Assembly: GCA_016204255.1 (NCBI GenBank)
Contig: JACQLA010000003.1
Coordinates: forward strand, 106,255 to 170,254
Length of the DNA stretch: 64,000 nucleotides
Reading direction: 5' to 3'
Source of the DNA: Candidatus Microgenomates bacterium
GTDB taxonomy: Bacteria > Patescibacteriota > Microgenomatia > JACQLA01
Shown: positions 14,899 through 41,381 of the stretch, in pieces
Numbering within the stretch: the stretch's first letter is position 1
How the letters are laid out: each line of letters begins with the position of its first letter
The notes under the pieces: generated by a model
What the model saw: only the letters and a program-made list of their open reading frames with translations
Database searches by the model: none
Told to the model about the DNA's origin: nothing
Program-made: the position numbers and the translations under genes

Positions 14899-14951
14899 AC
14901 TATTTATTATTACAAGGAAAAAATACAAATGCAAGAGGAACCAGAAATCAG

Positions 14952-14986
14952 TCGGGGTGGCGGGAATTGAACCCACTGCTTCTCGG
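14952..14986 (-). other. 3' half of split tRNA-like gene X (anticodon-stem 3' strand, variable loop, T arm, acceptor 3' strand, A73)
   Basis: Reads CCGAG-AAGCA-GUGGG-UUCAAUU-CCCGC-CACCCCG-A. Pairs 5/5 and 7/7 with the 5' half at 15129-15158. Confidence 0.55.
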
Positions 14987-15040
14987 TCACTAAAAATTGC
15001 GAGTCAACTTTCAGTGTAAACCTTCACCCAGAAAAATCTG

Positions 15041-15113
15041 TCGGGGATACCCGATTTGAACGGGTGGCCTCTCGCTCCCAAAGCGAGCGCTCTAGCCGCT
15101 GAGCTAATCCCCG
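15041..15113 (-). tRNA. tRNA-Pro (TGG)
   Basis: Cloverleaf: CGGGGAU-UA-GCUC-AGCGGCUA-GAGC-G-CUCGC-UUUGGGA-GCGAG-AGGCC-ACCCG-UUCAAAU-CGGGU-AUCCCCG-A (73 nt). Confidence 0.9.
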
Positions 15114-15128
15114 ATTTTTAAGGGCAAA

Positions 15129-15158
15129 CCGAGCGTTCTACCGATGAACTACACCCCG
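15129..15158 (-). other. 5' half of split tRNA-like gene X (acceptor 5' strand, D arm, anticodon-stem 5' strand)
   Basis: Reads CGGGGUG-UA-GUUC-AUCGGUA-GAAC-G-CUCGG. U8, GG in the D loop and a 4-bp D stem are all canonical. Confidence 0.55.
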
Positions 15159-15195
15159 CCGACTGCCAAGGAATTTGACGCTCAGCTACTTTTTG

Positions 15196-15280
15196 TGCCG
15201 GGGGCGGGACTCGAACCCGCACGACTTATGCAGCCAAAAGATTTTAAGTCTTTCGTGTATACCGATTTCACCACCCCGGC
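15196..15280 (-). tRNA. tRNA-Leu (TAA), class II
   Basis: GCCGGGG-UG-GUG-AAAUCGGUAUA-CAC-G-AAAGA-CUUAAAA-UCUUU, long variable arm, GCGGG-UUCGAGU-CCCGC-CCCCGGC-A. Confidence 0.9.
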
Positions 15281-15354
15281 AAAAAATAATCCCTCGTGCC
15301 TGCCTTGTCGAAGCCTCCGGCGAAGGCAGGTCTACCAGTTCCACCACCGCGGCG
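15281..15354 (-). other. tRNA-Leu-like 5' fragment Z (acceptor/D-arm-like start, 8-bp hairpin, no T arm)
   Basis: Reads GCCGCGGUGGUGGAACUGGUAGAC (Leu-type 5' end), then CCUGCCUU-CGCCGGAGGCUUCGAC-AAGGCAGG, then GCACGAGGGAUUAUUUUUU. No T arm or acceptor 3' strand follows. Confidence 0.4.
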
Positions 15355-15472
15355 CAAAAGATTTGACGCGATCCAGTTGATCGCTAGTTCGCCTTTGGCG
15401 AAGAAATCTTTCGTGCTTGCCCCGTTAATTGCAAAGCAATTTTACGGGGTATACCGATTTCACCACCCCGGC
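15355..15472 (-). pseudogene. 5' fragment Y of tRNA-Leu(TAA) (positions 1 to about 45) with hairpin insertions in the D loop and anticodon loop
   Basis: Identical to the intact gene over GCCGGGGUGGUGAAAUCGGUAUA, CACGAAAGA and AAAUCUUUUG. Interrupted by a 34-nt hairpin (15415-15448) and a 39-nt double hairpin (15365-15403). Lacks variable arm, T arm and acceptor 3' strand. Confidence 0.6.
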
Positions 15473-15511
15473 CCGCCTAGACCCGCGTCGACGCGAGGCT
15501 AACTACGCCCC
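15473..15511 (-). other. tRNA-like 5' start (GGGGCGUAGUU) fused to a GC-rich palindromic module
   Basis: Reads GGGGCGUAGUU-AGCCUCG-CGUCGACG-CGGGUCUAGGCGGGC. The module shares AGCCUCG...CUAGGCGGG with the insertion at 39813-39844. Confidence 0.3.
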
Positions 15512-35676: not shown

Positions 35677-35747
35677 AGCGGGTAACGGGAGTCGAACCCG
35701 TGCCTCGTCCTTGGCAAGGACGCATAATACCGCTATACTATACCCGC
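35677..35747 (-). tRNA. tRNA-Gly (GCC)
   Basis: Acceptor GCGGGUA/UACCCGC, anticodon arm CGUCC-UUGCCAA-GGACG, T arm ACGGG-UUCGACU-CCCGU. Confidence 0.9.
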
Positions 35748-36431
35748 ACGCTCCAATGCTTGGTTATATAAATTTATCCATTCAATAATTTTTTCTTTTA
35801 ATTCACGGCTATAAACTTGTATCGAACAAACTCCATGATCTACTTTTCTTTTTTTCTCTCTACCAAGAATATACTGAGATTTAACAAATTGTTCTTGCGA
35901 AACTCCAAGTATTTTACTCCAATATTCTTTACATATTTTTTCATTAAGGTCAGGGTAAAGAAGTAACCACAATCTAATTTTTCCTAATTGAATCTGGCAA
36001 CAAACTCTTAAAAAGGCGATAAAAATTTTTAGTAATCGATAATCAATATTAGAAATGCGCACTATTCCATTCTTTAGTCTTTTATCACCTTCTCCCCAAT
36101 AAATCATTAAACCAGGTCCAAAAAGCGGCATTGAGAACAACTTAGGGAATTCTTGGGTCGCTTGATTCCTATAGTTTAAATGAATTCTCCGCCACTTTTC
36201 CTTATTGGCTTGAGCCATTAATTTCAATTTCTCAATCGCTTTTTCCTGAGCCCGCTTTATTAAAACCTTCTTGACTCGAGATGAATAAACATCTGCCTTA
36301 AACCAGTTGGAAAGAGTGCTTTTAGGGATACCCAACTCTCGACTTATTGTGTTATAGCTTCTCTGTTTTTTTCGTAATGTAAAAGCCTTTTTTTTGAGTT
36401 TATTTTTATTTATTGAACTAACGTATGCCAT
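35733..36431 (-). CDS. HTH + LAGLIDADG-like putative homing endonuclease inside a tRNA array
   Basis: 232 aa. N-terminal HTH (RSYNTISRELGIPKSTLSNWF). GPGLMIYWGEGDK resembles a LAGLIDADG motif. The last 5 codons and the TAG stop lie inside tRNA-Gly(GCC). Family call is tentative. Confidence 0.5.
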   Translation of the reverse strand: MAYVSSINKNKLKKKAFTLRKKQRSYNTISRELGIPKSTLSNWFKADVYSSRVKKVLIKRAQEKAIEKLKLMAQANKEKWRRIHLNYRNQATQEFPKLFSMPLFGPGLMIYWGEGDKRLKNGIVRISNIDYRLLKIFIAFLRVCCQIQLGKIRLWLLLYPDLNEKICKEYWSKILGVSQEQFVKSQYILGREKKRKVDHGVCSIQVYSRELKEKIIEWINLYNQALERAGIV

Positions 36432-39398: not shown

Positions 39399-39483
39399 TG
39401 GTGCCGAAGGTGGGACTTGAACCCACACCCCTTGCGGGACACGGCCCTGAACCGTGCGCGTCTGCCAATTCCGCCACTTCGGC
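39399..39483 (-). tRNA. tRNA-Leu (CAG), class II, CCA encoded
   Basis: GCCGAAG-UG-GCG-GAAUUGGCAGA-CGC-G-CACGG-UUCAGGG-CCGUG, variable arm, GUGGG-UUCAAGU-CCCAC-CUUCGGC-ACCA. Confidence 0.9.
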
Positions 39484-39497
39484 CTGATAACTTAGTT

Positions 39498-39752
39498 TTA
39501 TTTTAAAACGTGCGTAAACAAATTTTTCTTCATCCAACGACGCCCTACAGCTGATTTAAAATATTTTTCTCTTTTGATTACTTCTTCTAAGGTAGCAAAA
39601 AAATCCGAATAAATAATTTCCCATGGTCTATATCGTTTACTGAAGATACTGTTGCCATTATTGTGTTGAATAAGTCTTCGTTCCAGGTTGTCTGTGTGAC
39701 CAACGTATGTTTTTTCAGCTACTCGACTTTTAAGAATATACACGACGTACAT
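39498..39752 (-). CDS. GIY-YIG nuclease-domain protein (UPF0213-like)
   Basis: 84 aa. VVYILKSRVAEKTYVGHTDNLERRLIQHN ... KREKYFK matches the GIY-(x10)-YVG, R and E/N positions of GIY-YIG. Confidence 0.85.
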   Translation of the reverse strand: MYVVYILKSRVAEKTYVGHTDNLERRLIQHNNGNSIFSKRYRPWEIIYSDFFATLEEVIKREKYFKSAVGRRWMKKNLFTHVLK

Positions 39753-39854
39753 TTGCGCGTCTACCCGCCTCGACTCGACCGACGTCGAGTGGGGCGAGGC
39801 GGGTCAATTCCGCCCGCCTAGCCTTGACGTCTAGTCGAGGCTGGCCACTTCGGC
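39753..39854 (-). pseudogene. 5' fragment of tRNA-Leu(CAG) (positions 1 to about 28) carrying two GC-rich hairpin insertions
   Basis: GCCGAAGUGG + 32-nt insert (39813-39844) + CGGAAUUG + 42-nt hairpin (39763-39804) + AGACGCGCA, then A-AUG of the GIY-YIG ORF. The three tRNA-derived blocks (27 nt) are identical to the intact gene 270 nt downstream. Confidence 0.65.
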
Positions 39855-39933
39855 TTACCGACCTAATTTTAACTCAGCCTTGGAAACTTGACAAGTTTTC
39901 ACAAATGTGTAACCATGAAGATTAAACAAAACC

Positions 39934-40781: not shown

Positions 40782-41381
40782 ATGACAAAATTTCTGCTCA
40801 ATCTACTTGTTATTTTGGGGCTCACTATCTTCCTCACCAGCCCCATACAAGCTCAAACTACTCTCGCTGACTCTAAGCGGGCCAGCCTCGCTGACTCTAA
40901 GCGGGCCAGCTTTATCACGAGCGGTTTTTCTGCCGAACTGATTAGTGTTAAACCGGTTAAAAAGGCAGATAAGCGAGTTCAACAACTACGTCTTTTCCTG
41001 GCGCATTATAATTCACCCTTAGAGGACTTTGCGCCCGCTTTTATTGAATCTGCAGATAGAAACGGTGTTGACTGGAAGCTGGTTCCGGCAATTACCGGTG
41101 TTGAATCGACTTTTGGTAAAGCCATTCCGGCCAAATCTTACAATGCCTATGGTTGGGCCAACGGTGAGTATTACTTTAAAAACTGGGGCGAATCAATTGA
41201 AATTGTCAACAAAACCCTTAAAGAAAAGTATATTGACCGGGGAGCCAATACGGTGGAAAAGATTGCGCCAATTTATGCTCCACCTTCCCGAACGTGGGCT
41301 GGAAAAGTGAACTTTTTTATGCGTAAAATTGAAAGTTTTGATAAGATTCAAGAGCCGCAAAGCCTTGCGCTTTCCTTGTAA
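40782..41381 (+). CDS. Secreted SLT/lysozyme-like peptidoglycan hydrolase-like protein (paralog 2)
   Basis: 199 aa. Signal peptide, tandem duplicated [18 protein letters not shown]. Paralog of 39934-40530. Confidence 0.55.

What the first reader, a model, noticed from the sequence alone, without database searches (positions are those of the whole stretch)
39763..39844. Shared GC-rich module (AGCCUCG...CUAGGCGGG) inserted after position ~10-11 of two different tRNA 5' fragments
At 39844->39813 the insert CCAGCCUCGACUAGACGUCAAGGCUAGGCGGG follows the first 10 nt of the tRNA-Leu(CAG) fragment. At 15500->15473 the insert AGCCUCGCGUCGACGCGGGUCUAGGCGGGC follows the 11-nt tRNA-like start GGGGCGUAGUU.

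Both inserts begin with AGCCUCG, have a short palindromic core (GACUAGACGUC and CGCGUCGACGCG), and end with CUAGGCGGG. Both sit at the same place relative to a tRNA 5' end, in the D stem.

This suggests a small GC-rich element, or the end of a larger one, with a preference for that site in tRNA genes. Alternatively it could be a recombination signal used by the events that created the fragments.
Basis: seen in the sequence. Interest (0 to 1): 0.55.

Follow-up and report, generated by a model that had tools for sequence, protein, structure and literature searches.

The report
Mobile GC-rich palindrome in tRNA remnants
The two look-alike GC-rich inserts are copies of a small palindromic DNA element that is scattered through the genomes of ultra-small (CPR) bacteria, even in frame inside housekeeping genes; here both copies sit in leftover tRNA gene starts of the kind that a small selfish nuclease gene leaves behind when it invades a tRNA gene.

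Summary
Two copies of AGCCTCG…CTAGGCGGG lie at 39844-39813 and 15500-15472 on the minus strand; 100 shuffles gave none.

The module belongs to a dispersed family with the consensus CCAGCCTCGACTAGACGTCGAGTCTAGGCGGG. A 22-base pattern hit at least 120 metagenome stretches. Copies occur in both orientations, at purine^pyrimidine junctions, without target duplication, and in tandem or nested. The 30/33-nt versions sit in frame (PASTSASLGG) in DnaG, GAPDH, TsaD, GluRS, ThyA and PGK.

It is not tRNA-specific: about 60 of 83 copies are away from any tRNA. It is, however, strongly enriched in one setting. In CPR, Bacteroidota and Ignavibacteria, an ~84-aa Slx1/UPF0213-like GIY-YIG nuclease gene sits directly beside a tRNA gene. 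It is flanked by a second, partial copy of that tRNA, and that copy is split by a GC-rich palindrome (CCCGCC…GGCGGG).

Site 1 is such a cassette. A syntenic relative has the same tRNA-Leu(CAG) with no cassette. Site 2 is a stack of old fragments with no nuclease gene.

I infer, without proof, that the nuclease acts on these palindromes. I found no published description.

The parts
39866..39894 (-). Promoter-like TTGTCA-17-TAAAAT. Its -10 box ends 11 nt before the tRNA 5' fragment, the position expected for the original tRNA promoter.
   Evidence: 10 of 12 matches; consensus match only
39845..39854 (-). Displaced tRNA-Leu(CAG) 5' fragment, positions 1-10 (GCCGAAGTGG)
   Evidence: identical to the start of the intact tRNA at 39483
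39813..39844 (-). The finding's module, copy 1: the 32-nt 'type B' palindromic element CCAGCCTCGACTAGACGTCAAGGCTAGGCGGG. It differs from the family consensus at 2 positions.
   Evidence: the identical variant occurs in L138
39805..39812 (-). tRNA-Leu(CAG) fragment, positions 11-18 (CGGAATTG)
39763..39804 (-). 'Type A' cassette palindrome ACCCGCCTCGCCCCACTCGACGTCGGTCGAGTCGAGGCGGGT, inserted at the D-loop GG in place of positions 19-20
   Evidence: DNA fold of 39856-39750, which holds both palindromes: -30.9 kcal/mol, z = -4.4; homologous palindromes in dozens of loci
39754..39762 (-). tRNA-Leu(CAG) fragment, positions 21-29 (AGACGCGCA), followed by one A and then the ATG
39498..39752 (-). 84-aa stand-alone GIY-YIG nuclease gene (UPF0213/Slx1-like). 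Catalytic residues are conserved.
   Evidence: Pfam GIY-YIG, 1.1e-17; invariant Y5, Y16, G18, R26, H30, E62; PDB 1ywl 3.9e-12; SLX1 3.6e-4
39399..39483 (-). Intact tRNA-Leu(CAG), 14 nt after the ORF stop codon
15501..15511 (-). tRNA-like 5' start GGGGCGTAGTT. It differs by one base from the 5' fragment (C)GGGGTGTAGTT near 15147.
15472..15500 (-). The finding's module, copy 2 (diverged): AGCCTCGCGTCGACGCGGGTCTAGGCGGG
   Evidence: similar variants in L096, L032 and L149
15449..15472 (-). Degenerate tRNA-Leu(UAA) copy, positions 1-24 (GCCGGGGTGGTGAAATCGGTATAC). Its first G is shared with the end of the module.
15415..15448 (-). A different hairpin ('type C'), CCCGTAAAATTGCTTTGCAATTAACGGGGCAAGC, splitting the pseudo-tRNA after position 24
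   Evidence: the same kind of hairpin at the same tRNA position in L208
15355..15414 (-). Rest of the pseudo-tRNA-Leu(UAA): ACGAAAGA (positions 25-32), a ~42-nt insert in the anticodon loop, then AAATCTTTTG (about positions 37-46)
   Evidence: read against the intact tRNA
15291..15353 (-). A third stacked class-II tRNA 5' fragment, GCCGCGGTGGTGGAACTGGTAGAC, then the palindrome CCTGCCTT…AAGGCAGG, then CACGAGGG. No ORF follows; after a T-run comes the intact tRNA.
15195..15280 (-). Intact tRNA-Leu(UAA)

Best explanation
SHOWN.
The module is a copy of a dispersed, ~28-33-nt, GC-rich, imperfectly palindromic insertion element of CPR/Patescibacteria. Its consensus is CCAGCCTCGACTAGACGTCGAGTCTAGGCGGG.

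It behaves as a DNA-level insertion:
- It lies in either orientation, between a purine and a pyrimidine, with no target-site duplication.
- It is sometimes in tandem or nested inside other palindromes.
- Versions whose length is a multiple of three persist in frame inside housekeeping genes.

In this window both copies lie in redundant tRNA 5' fragments. Such fragments are one half of a widespread cassette. In that cassette a small Slx1/UPF0213-like GIY-YIG nuclease gene sits immediately next to a tRNA gene, behind the tRNA promoter. It is flanked by a second, partial (sometimes full-length) copy of the same tRNA. That redundant copy is almost always split by a palindrome with CCCGCC…GGCGGG ends. 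The cassette is present or absent at orthologous tRNA genes of related genomes.

INFERRED.
1. The cassette spreads by nuclease-initiated break repair within tRNA genes. It copies in the ORF plus a replacement tRNA end, so the tRNA stays functional.
2. The palindrome is the cis partner of the nuclease. It sits where the tRNA copy is broken, and the nuclease is a structure-specific-type enzyme with no DNA-binding domain.
3. The 'type B' module of this finding is a derivative of that palindrome that also spreads to other sites.
4. Site 2 is a graveyard of three successive displaced 5' fragments whose nuclease gene has been lost.
For: The family is real.

It is a DNA-level insertion.
- In module orientation the base before the element is a purine in 73/78 copies and the base after GGCGGG is a pyrimidine in 67/78.
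- Both orientations occur at the same tRNA junctions: window versus L003 and L060, and L149 versus L166/L161/L145.
- Tandem copies: L117 (x3), L149, L032. Nested copies: L157, L165.

In-frame filter.
- The 15 copies inside 111-500-aa ORFs in reading phase 0 (PAST..SLGG) are all 30 or 33 nt long.
- Of the 28 copies of 32 nt, 26 have no spanning ORF; the other two lie only in antisense ORFs of 181 and 228 aa.
- Hosts are DnaG, GAPDH, TsaD, GluRS, ThyA and PGK.
- Among the query and its 120 closest GAPDH homologues, only the query and one homologue carry PASTSASLGG.

The cassette.
- 479 GIY-YIG relatives were confirmed in GTDB genomes.
- Of 83 loci examined, 46 have a co-oriented tRNA starting 0-35 nt after the ORF. 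Eleven have it ~300-370 nt away, behind a tandem ORF. Sixteen have an intact tRNA just upstream.
- The upstream fragment copies the local tRNA: 97.5% identity left of the palindrome and 95.7% right of it.
- A family palindrome was found in 63/78 loci by a strict finder. It ends a median of 17 nt before the start codon.
- Type A orientation is 7:7.
- Type A hairpins lie next to a GIY-YIG ORF in 9 of 10 cases in 560 kb of contigs chosen for type B.
- The nearest-neighbour nuclease sits at the same tRNA type in 56/68 cases, against 26% by chance.

Empty site.
- The syntenic relative L208/L209 has a plain tRNA-Leu(CAG) but a cassette at tRNA-Phe. The window has the reverse.

Nuclease type.
- PDB UPF0213 proteins match at 3.9e-12 and SLX1 at 3.6e-4. 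The catalytic residues are invariant.

Promoter.
- A promoter-like site lies just before the 5' fragment.

Enrichment.
- About 20 of 83 module copies lie within 400 nt upstream of a GIY-YIG ORF.
Against: - No nuclease activity, target site or transposition intermediate was observed. The link between nuclease and palindrome rests on co-location only.
- The intact tRNA copy still carries any target that lies inside the tRNA, so ordinary homing immunity is not explained.
- How an 84-aa catalytic domain would tell tRNA types apart is unknown. The agreement between nuclease lineage and tRNA type is confounded with taxonomy.
- Most type B copies are far from any GIY-YIG gene on the DNA held, and a different enzyme could mobilise them.
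- The metagenome loci were selected for having the module, so the enrichment figure is biased.
- Palindromes could accumulate in displaced fragments simply because insertions there are harmless and interrupt a deletion-prone direct repeat.
Confidence: 0.55

Rival explanations
1. One reading: a small GC-rich element that specifically targets position ~10-11 (D stem) of tRNA genes.
For: - The same junction after G10 is used in tRNA-Leu (window, L003, L011, L017, L096, L097, L109) and in tRNA-Gln (L032, L149, L166, L161, L145, L155), in both orientations.
- Related palindromes sit at a few recurrent tRNA positions: 7|8, 10|11, 17-19 and 21|22.
Against: - About 60 of 83 copies have no tRNA or GIY-YIG gene nearby, and 15 lie inside protein-coding genes.
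- The flanks share only a purine^pyrimidine preference.
- Recurrent tRNA positions may be inherited with the spreading cassette rather than hit independently.
- At window site 2 the module is followed by position 1 of another tRNA copy, not by the D arm.
Confidence: 0.15
2. A neutral passenger. The palindromes are mobilised by some unrelated machinery. They merely survive in displaced tRNA fragments, because those are among the few harmless landing sites in a compact genome, and because an insert that splits the direct repeat slows loss of the cassette.
For: - Type B copies are dispersed and tolerated wherever they do not break a reading frame.
- Several unrelated hairpin types occupy the fragments, for example type C at 15448-15415 and in L208.
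- The position within the fragment varies.
Against: - Type A is almost confined to the cassettes: 9 of 10, and nearly all (two possible exceptions). Other intergenic DNA in the same contigs lacks it.
- The CCCGCC…GGCGGG ends are conserved from CPR to Bacteroidota. A mere spacer would not need this.
- In Bacteroidota a full-length tRNA copy still shares 58 nt of uninterrupted homology after the insert, so the insert is a poor barrier to recombination.
Confidence: 0.2
3. An RNA-level element: a 5'-UTR hairpin that stabilises or regulates the nuclease mRNA made from the tRNA promoter, or an intron-like insert in a tRNA precursor.
For: - It lies between a promoter-like site and the start codon. 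The last hairpin ends a median of 17 nt before the ATG.
- The region folds strongly (z = -4.4).
- Compensatory differences keep the 9-bp stem in the two window copies.
Against: - Both orientations are equally frequent.
- In Bacteroidota the palindromes lie downstream of the ORF, in the redundant tRNA copy.
- The same element is translated in frame inside proteins.
- There is no Rfam match other than tRNAs.
- The CPR fragments lack a tRNA 3' half, so no spliceable tRNA exists.
Confidence: 0.07
4. Chance resemblance between two unrelated GC-rich hairpins.
For: Only two copies occur in 64 kb, and the middle parts differ.
Against: No shuffle out of 100 gave even one hit. At least 120 further stretches match a stricter 22-base pattern.
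Confidence: 0.01

Closest known systems
Rickettsia palindromic elements (RPE; Ogata et al. 2000, from my own knowledge)
   Same: Short palindromic repeats dispersed in a small genome. They are inserted in frame into protein-coding genes and translated as extra peptide segments, and also lie in non-coding DNA. The mobilising enzyme is unknown.
   Different: - The module is much shorter (28-33 nt against about 100-150 nt) and GC-rich in an AT-rich genome.
- The host phylum is different, and no sequence similarity is expected (not tested).
- It is strongly enriched next to a particular nuclease gene.
REP/BIME palindromes with their RAYT transposase (from my own knowledge)
   Same: Short GC-rich imperfect palindromes that occur singly, in tandem and in both orientations. 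A single-copy enzyme gene flanked by them is thought to mobilise them in trans.
   Different: - The enzyme here is a GIY-YIG (Slx1-like) nuclease, not an HUH/Y1 transposase.
- The elements also lie inside genes.
- The enzyme gene is embedded in a duplicated tRNA gene.
Free-standing GIY-YIG homing endonucleases, for example phage T4 SegB in the tRNA gene cluster (PMC2330249)
   Same: A GIY-YIG gene sits among tRNA genes outside any intron. It is inherited preferentially together with flanking tRNA sequence, and its presence varies between relatives.
   Different: - Seg proteins carry a DNA-binding domain and are more than 200 aa long. This protein is the 84-aa catalytic domain only.
- Seg genes are not flanked by a split duplicate of the target, and no palindrome is involved.
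Mobile endonuclease ORFs of fungal mitochondria that bring a duplicate gene end (Allomyces atp6 and similar 'mORFs'), together with GC-rich double-hairpin elements and yeast GC clusters (from my own knowledge)
   Same: - The invading ORF carries a replacement copy of the end of the host gene.
- The displaced original end remains as a pseudogene fragment.
- Small GC-rich hairpin elements populate the same AT-rich genomes, including coding regions.
   Different: - The target here is a tRNA gene's 5' (or 3') part, in free-living or episymbiotic bacteria.
- The hairpin is an almost constant component, located inside the displaced fragment.
Integrative elements that duplicate part of a tRNA gene at att sites
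   Same: A partial tRNA duplicate flanks inserted DNA while the tRNA stays intact.
   Different: - There is no integrase.
- The insert is only ~350 nt.
- The 5' part is usually duplicated rather than the 3' part, and the duplicate is interrupted by palindromes.

Membership tests
Miniature palindromic insertion elements (RPE/REP/GC-cluster kind) | Short sequence with terminal inverted repeats or palindromic ends | tested here: met
   CCAGCCT…AGGCGGG ends match in 6 of 7 positions. The region 39856-39750, which holds both palindromes, folds as single-stranded DNA with z = -4.4.
Miniature palindromic insertion elements (RPE/REP/GC-cluster kind) | Many dispersed copies in unrelated genomic contexts | tested here: met
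   At least 120 metagenome stretches. The contexts include six different housekeeping genes and intergenic DNA.
Miniature palindromic insertion elements (RPE/REP/GC-cluster kind) | Insertion polymorphism: filled versus empty orthologous sites | tested here: met
   GAPDH: among the query and its 120 closest homologues, only the query and one homologue carry the 10-aa insert. tRNA-Leu(CAG) is empty in the syntenic L208/L209.
Miniature palindromic insertion elements (RPE/REP/GC-cluster kind) | Target-site duplication (typical of transposase-made MITEs) | tested here: not met
   At tRNA-Gln, ATCG^TCTAATGG, the insert is exact with at most 1 nt of ambiguity. The flanks show only R^Y. It therefore resembles the no-duplication kinds (REP, IS200/605-like, gene conversion) rather than classical MITEs.
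Rickettsia palindromic elements specifically | Sequence homology to RPE families | not tested
   No RPE library was on hand. The length and composition differ, so only the behaviour is compared.
tRNA intron (group I, or bulge-helix-bulge) | The insert interrupts a complete tRNA with both exons present | tested here: not met
   The window fragments stop at position ~29 or ~46 and have no T arm or 3' acceptor strand. A separate intact tRNA follows.
tRNA intron (group I, or bulge-helix-bulge) | Group I catalytic core | tested here: not met
   Rfam at gathering thresholds gave only 13 tRNAs in the window. The insert is 32 nt.
tmRNA (considered because site 2 starts GGGGCGUAG) | tRNA-like domain plus tag reading frame | tested here: not met
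   ARAGORN found no tmRNA. Rfam gave only a 13.9-bit tmRNA hit, at a different place (14949-15028), against a gathering score of 47.
GIY-YIG superfamily, UPF0213/Slx1 branch (the neighbouring ORF) | GIY-YIG catalytic domain with conserved Tyr, Tyr, Gly, Arg, Glu | tested here: met
   Pfam PF01541 at 1.1e-17. Invariant Y5, Y16, G18, R26, H30, E62 in 23 homologues. PDB 1ywl and 1zg2 (UPF0213) and SLX1.
Site-specific homing endonuclease (I-TevI/Seg type) | A separate DNA-binding domain that confers long-target specificity | tested here: not met
   The protein is 84 aa and the GIY-YIG profile covers residues 1-76. The NCBIfam group I intron endonuclease model scores 20.8 bits against a cut-off of 56.
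Site-specific homing endonuclease (I-TevI/Seg type) | Presence/absence at orthologous sites with co-conversion of flanks | tested here: met
   Reciprocal presence/absence between the window and L208 at tRNA-Leu(CAG) and tRNA-Phe. Co-conversion tracts were not analysed.
Site-specific homing endonuclease (I-TevI/Seg type) | Cleavage of the empty allele | not testable with these tools
   Needs biochemistry.
Integrase-type genomic island in a tRNA gene | Tyrosine or serine recombinase gene and a 3'-end att duplication | tested here: not met
   The only ORF between the repeats is the GIY-YIG gene, and the 5' end is what is duplicated.

The most novel reading that the evidence does not exclude
The small Slx1-like GIY-YIG nuclease and the GC-rich palindromes form a two-part selfish system not yet described.
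- The nuclease acts on the extruded or looped-out palindrome rather than on a long DNA sequence.
- This drives insertion of nuclease gene + palindrome + replacement tRNA end into tRNA genes of CPR, Bacteroidota and Ignavibacteria.
- In CPR the same nuclease mobilises free palindrome copies, such as this finding's module, in trans into other sites, including in frame into essential genes.

That would be a nuclease-driven counterpart of REP/RAYT, and a new way of colonising tRNA genes.
Probability: 0.3. Interest if true: 0.8.

Novelty: new variant of a known kind. Interest (0 to 1): 0.62.

Why it matters
1. Annotation. CPR genomes carry 10-11-residue 'PAST(S/R)ASLGG'-type inserts in core enzymes, and stacks of tRNA pseudo-fragments. 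These are insertion scars, not lineage-specific protein features or novel RNAs. Gene callers also extend the nuclease ORFs through the hairpins and into the tRNAs.

2. Mobile DNA. A very small nuclease gene associates with tRNA genes across at least three bacterial groups (479 confirmed loci in GTDB species representatives). It always comes with a duplicated, palindrome-split tRNA piece. This is a simple, widespread selfish cassette, and nine full-text literature searches found no description of it.

3. Mechanism. If the Slx1-like nuclease really works on the palindrome, this would be an experimentally tractable case of structure-directed DNA mobility. It would also suggest a function for the large, uncharacterised UPF0213/YhbQ family.

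Tried and rejected
- tmRNA or another known RNA at site 2 (it starts GGGGCGUAG): ARAGORN and Rfam found nothing beyond tRNAs.
- Group I or archaeal-type tRNA intron, or split tRNA with GC-rich joining sequences: rejected. An intact tRNA follows each fragment, and the fragments lack 3' halves.
- Remnant GIY-YIG coding sequence at site 2: tblastn with 23 homologues found only the gene at 39752-39498.
- Other family hairpins in the window: none beyond the two sites.
- Phage origin: 0 module hits in 2.9 million viral contigs.
- Attenuator idea. CCCGCCT at 39803-39797 can pair either with the end of the module or with the end of the type A palindrome. I dropped this because orientation is random across loci.
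- Shine-Dalgarno role for GAGG in the hairpin arm: the spacing of ~16 nt is too long.
- Literature: nine searches combining GIY-YIG with tRNA, CPR/Patescibacteria, Bacteroidetes, palindromes, partial tRNA and in-frame insertions found no description. The 2006 GIY-YIG survey mentions only a fusion of Slx1-like GIY-YIG with the tRNA Gm18 methyltransferase TrmH.
- The 232-aa ORF before tRNA-Gly looked LAGLIDADG-like by eye. Pfam and PDB sequence searches gave only weak HTH hits.
Full report
**1. The observation**

On the minus strand, site 1 reads GCCGAAGTGG (39854-39845), then CCAGCCTCGACTAGACGTCAAGGCTAGGCGGG (39844-39813). Site 2 reads GGGGCGTAGTT (15511-15501), then AGCCTCGCGTCGACGCGGGTCTAGGCGGG (15500-15472).

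The pattern AGCCTCG-N(8-30)-CTAGGCGGG occurs twice in the window and never in 100 dinucleotide-preserving shuffles. Site 1 is identical in an NCBI assembly of a 'Candidatus Microgenomates bacterium' and in an independent Logan assembly.

**2. Anatomy of site 1**

ARAGORN and Rfam find an intact tRNA-Leu(CAG) at 39483-39399. The '5' fragment' is a split copy of the first 29 nt of that same tRNA. In order, the region contains:
- tRNA positions 1-10;
- the 32-nt module;
- tRNA positions 11-18 (CGGAATTG);
- a second, 42-nt palindrome, ACCCGCCTCG…CGAGGCGGGT (39804-39763);
- tRNA positions 21-29 (AGACGCGCA), one A, and the ATG of an 84-aa ORF (39752-39498);
- 14 nt after the stop codon, the intact tRNA.

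The ORF is a bare GIY-YIG catalytic domain (Pfam 1.1e-17). Its closest solved relatives are UPF0213 proteins and SLX1. The catalytic residues are invariant among 23 homologues.

A promoter-like TTGTCA-17-TAAAAT ends 11 nt before the fragment, where a tRNA promoter would sit. The hairpin region folds far better than shuffled sequence (z = -4.4).

**3. Anatomy of site 2**

There is no nuclease gene here. Three stacked tRNA 5' fragments precede the intact tRNA-Leu(UAA) at 15280-15195:
- GGGGCGTAGTT plus the module;
- a tRNA-Leu(UAA) copy (positions 1-24, 25-32 and ~37-46), split by a different hairpin (15448-15415) and by an anticodon-loop insert;
- GCCGCGGTGGTGGAACTGGTAGAC, then the palindrome CCTGCCTT…AAGGCAGG, then CACGAGGG.

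What comes after it is position 1 of another tRNA copy, not the D arm.

**4. The cassette is general**

Homologues of the nuclease (55-69% identity) are all from CPR bacteria. A degenerate-pattern scan of GTDB species representatives confirmed 479 relatives. The best 80 come from CPR, Bacteroidota and Ignavibacteria.

Of 83 loci examined:
- 46 have a co-oriented tRNA (Leu, Gln, Asn, Arg, Ala or Thr) starting 0-35 nt after the ORF;
- 11 have it ~300-370 nt away, behind a second tandem ORF;
- 16 (mostly Bacteroidota) have an intact tRNA just upstream;
- 5 have none, mostly at contig ends.

Upstream of nearly every ORF lies a copy of the 5' part of that same tRNA. It is 97.5% identical to the local tRNA left of the insert and 95.7% right of it. 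It is interrupted by a GC-rich palindrome, CCCGCCTCG…CGAGGCGGG in CPR and CCCGCCCG…CGGGCGGG in Bacteroidota. The interruption falls after tRNA position 7-8, 9-11, 16-19 or 21-22. The tRNA sequence then resumes and runs to within a few bases of the start codon. The palindrome ends a median of 17 nt before the ATG.

In Bacteroidota the mirror form occurs: intact tRNA, then the ORF, then a 3' fragment or a full-length tRNA copy carrying the palindrome (L037, L053, L064, L067, L069, L078).

The common rule is therefore a GIY-YIG gene flanked by direct repeats of tRNA sequence, with one copy intact and the other split by a palindrome.

The nuclease most similar to a given nuclease sits at the same tRNA type in 56 of 68 cases, against 26% expected by chance. 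This is confounded with taxonomy.

**5. The cassette comes and goes**

A relative whose neighbouring 197-aa protein is 72% identical keeps the same tRNA order: Leu-CAG, Leu-GAG, Val-TAC, Phe-GAA, Gly-GCC, Gln-TTG.
- There, tRNA-Leu(CAG) has no fragment, no module and no nuclease gene.
- tRNA-Phe(GAA), however, carries a cassette: positions 1-20, the mini-palindrome TCCGCCGCAGGCGGA, TCTGAAAAACACGAG, then ATG.
- The window has no cassette at tRNA-Phe.

Likewise, L004 has a cassette at tRNA-Leu(UAA)/tRNA-Pro(UGG), where the window has only fragments.

**6. What the module itself is**

The cassette palindrome ('type A') has two distinguishable arms, X = CCCGCCTCGACTCG and Y = CCCGCCTCGCGTCGA. X…rc(Y) and Y…rc(X) occur 7 times each. 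Its orientation relative to the tRNA and the ORF is therefore random.

The finding's module ('type B') is a close variant: CCAGCC instead of CCCGCC, and TCTAGG instead of TCGAGG. It appears in the GTDB cassettes L011, L032 and L041, and reversed in L003, L046 and L060.

The same pattern has no hit in viral contigs.

Among the 83 copies in the 80 loci returned:
- The consensus is CCAGCCTCGACTAGACGTCGAGTCTAGGCGGG.
- About 20 lie within 400 nt upstream of a GIY-YIG ORF, inside the tRNA 5' fragment. Seven loci carry it forward and about eleven reversed relative to the ORF.
- About 60 have no tRNA or nuclease gene nearby.
- The base before the element is a purine in 73/78 copies. The base after GGCGGG is a pyrimidine in 67/78.
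- At tRNA-Gln (ATCG^TCTAATGG) the insert is exact, with no target duplication.
- Tandem copies (L117 x3, L149) and nested copies (L157, L165) occur.

**7. In-frame copies**

Fifteen copies lie inside ORFs of 111-500 aa in reading phase 0. All of them are 30 or 33 nt long and read PAST(S/R)..SLGG. Of the 28 copies of 32 nt, 26 have no spanning ORF; the other two lie only in antisense ORFs of 181 and 228 aa. This is the signature of selection on real reading frames.

The hosts are DnaG, GAPDH, TsaD, GluRS, ThyA and PGK. Among the query and its 120 closest GAPDH homologues (81-91% identity), only the query and one homologue carry PASTSASLGG between VVISAPSK and G(N/G)EG. Most have nothing there, and a few carry other small inserts.

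The module is thus an insertion element in the manner of the Rickettsia palindromic elements. It is not a tRNA-specific signal.

**8. Mechanism: shown and inferred**

Shown:
- The module is a DNA-level insertion, with random orientation and no target duplication.
- It has dispersed copies and filled/empty polymorphism.
- It shows an in-frame filter inside genes.
- There is a tight, cross-phylum association between a Slx1-like stand-alone nuclease, a duplicated tRNA piece and a palindrome.
- Type A palindromes are almost confined to the cassettes.

Inferred:
- The cassette spreads by break repair within tRNA genes. The displaced original end stays behind the promoter, and the element supplies a replacement end.
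- Re-cutting of the intact copy, with repair from a cassette template, would explain the tandem units (L059, L003, L024, L067) and the stacked fragments at site 2.
- The palindrome marks the break point. It is the likely substrate of a structure-specific nuclease that has no DNA-binding domain.
- Type B is a derivative that spreads further.

Weak points:
- The intact tRNA remains a potential target.
- The source of target specificity is unknown.
- The link between enzyme and palindrome is correlative.
- A harmless-landing-site explanation is not excluded.

**9. Comparison with known systems**

In behaviour the module resembles RPEs, REP/BIME elements, and the GC clusters and double-hairpin elements of mitochondria. 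The cassette resembles free-standing GIY-YIG homing genes such as T4 segB (PMC2330249), and the mitochondrial mobile ORFs that bring a duplicate gene end.

It fails the defining tests for a tRNA intron, a tmRNA, an integrase island and a classical MITE with target duplication. The nuclease lacks the DNA-binding domain of Seg/I-TevI enzymes.

Nine full-text literature searches found no description of the cassette or of the element. The searchable library is incomplete, so prior description cannot be ruled out.

**10. Verdict**

The module is ordinary in kind: a small palindromic repeat. Its setting is new: an apparently undescribed and very widespread GIY-YIG/tRNA cassette, together with RPE-like in-frame inserts in CPR housekeeping genes. 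Interest 0.62; novelty: new variant of a known kind.

Noticed in passing
window 14950-15147 (minus strand): The intact tRNA-Pro(UGG) (15113-15040) lies between two pieces of another tRNA copy with a C1-G72 acceptor stem. The 5' piece is CGGGGTGTAGTTCATCGGTAGAACGCTCGGTTTG (positions 1-35, ~15147-15114). The 3' piece is CCGAGaagcaGTGGGTTCAATTCCCGCCACCCCGA (~14984-14950). It looks like a tRNA gene split at its anticodon loop by a segment that carries a working tRNA-Pro. Rfam gave a weak tmRNA/tRNA-like hit on the 3' piece.
   Followed up: partly
window 35733-36431 (minus strand): A 232-aa ORF with only weak N-terminal HTH matches runs into the first bases of tRNA-Gly(GCC) (35747). The syntenic relative L208 has no ORF between tRNA-Phe and tRNA-Gly. 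This may be a second kind of selfish gene parked directly upstream of a tRNA. A LAGLIDADG-like motif (YWGEGDK) was seen by eye only and is not supported by Pfam or PDB searches.
   Followed up: partly
window 15415-15448; L208 ~2100-2136: A third hairpin type, CCCGT…ACGGGGCAAGC, splits a tRNA-Leu 5' fragment right after GG(T/C)ATAC. It occurs both in the window and in the relative L208 upstream of tRNA-Leu(GAG), with different loop sequences.
   Followed up: no
L137 (DnaG), L103, and a GAPDH homologue: The peptide PSTSSGQ(V) recurs inside unrelated CPR housekeeping proteins. This suggests a second family of in-frame GC-rich insertion elements.
   Followed up: no
L004 3547-3960: A second GIY-YIG gene downstream of tRNA-Pro appears to be interrupted by several GC-rich hairpins. 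The recognisable C-terminal part resumes ~130 nt later, so the nuclease genes themselves are also hit by hairpin insertions.
   Followed up: no
L067, L069, L078 (Chitinophagaceae and other Bacteroidota): Full-length tRNA-Arg(CCU) copies carrying the palindrome in the D loop lie downstream of the nuclease gene, next to an intact copy. In L067 these alternate in arrays with further nuclease genes.
   Followed up: partly
alignment A1 (P0004, P0009, P0010, P0012, P0015, P0017-P0020): Database protein models of this family are often over-extended. Some C-termini read '(A)EVAE(R)/VAKW' because the ORF call runs into the tRNA-Leu 5' end. Some N-termini read 'SSLGGRNG…' because it runs through the palindrome.
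   Followed up: yes
window 40873-40905 (plus strand): CTAAGCGGG occurs twice, 24 nt apart, inside ORF 40782-41381. This is a tandem LADSKRAS repeat in a secreted-looking protein and is unrelated to the module.
   Followed up: no
PMC1564403 (literature): [quoted passage not shown] Here the commonest palindrome position is at G18-G19. This may be coincidence.
   Followed up: no
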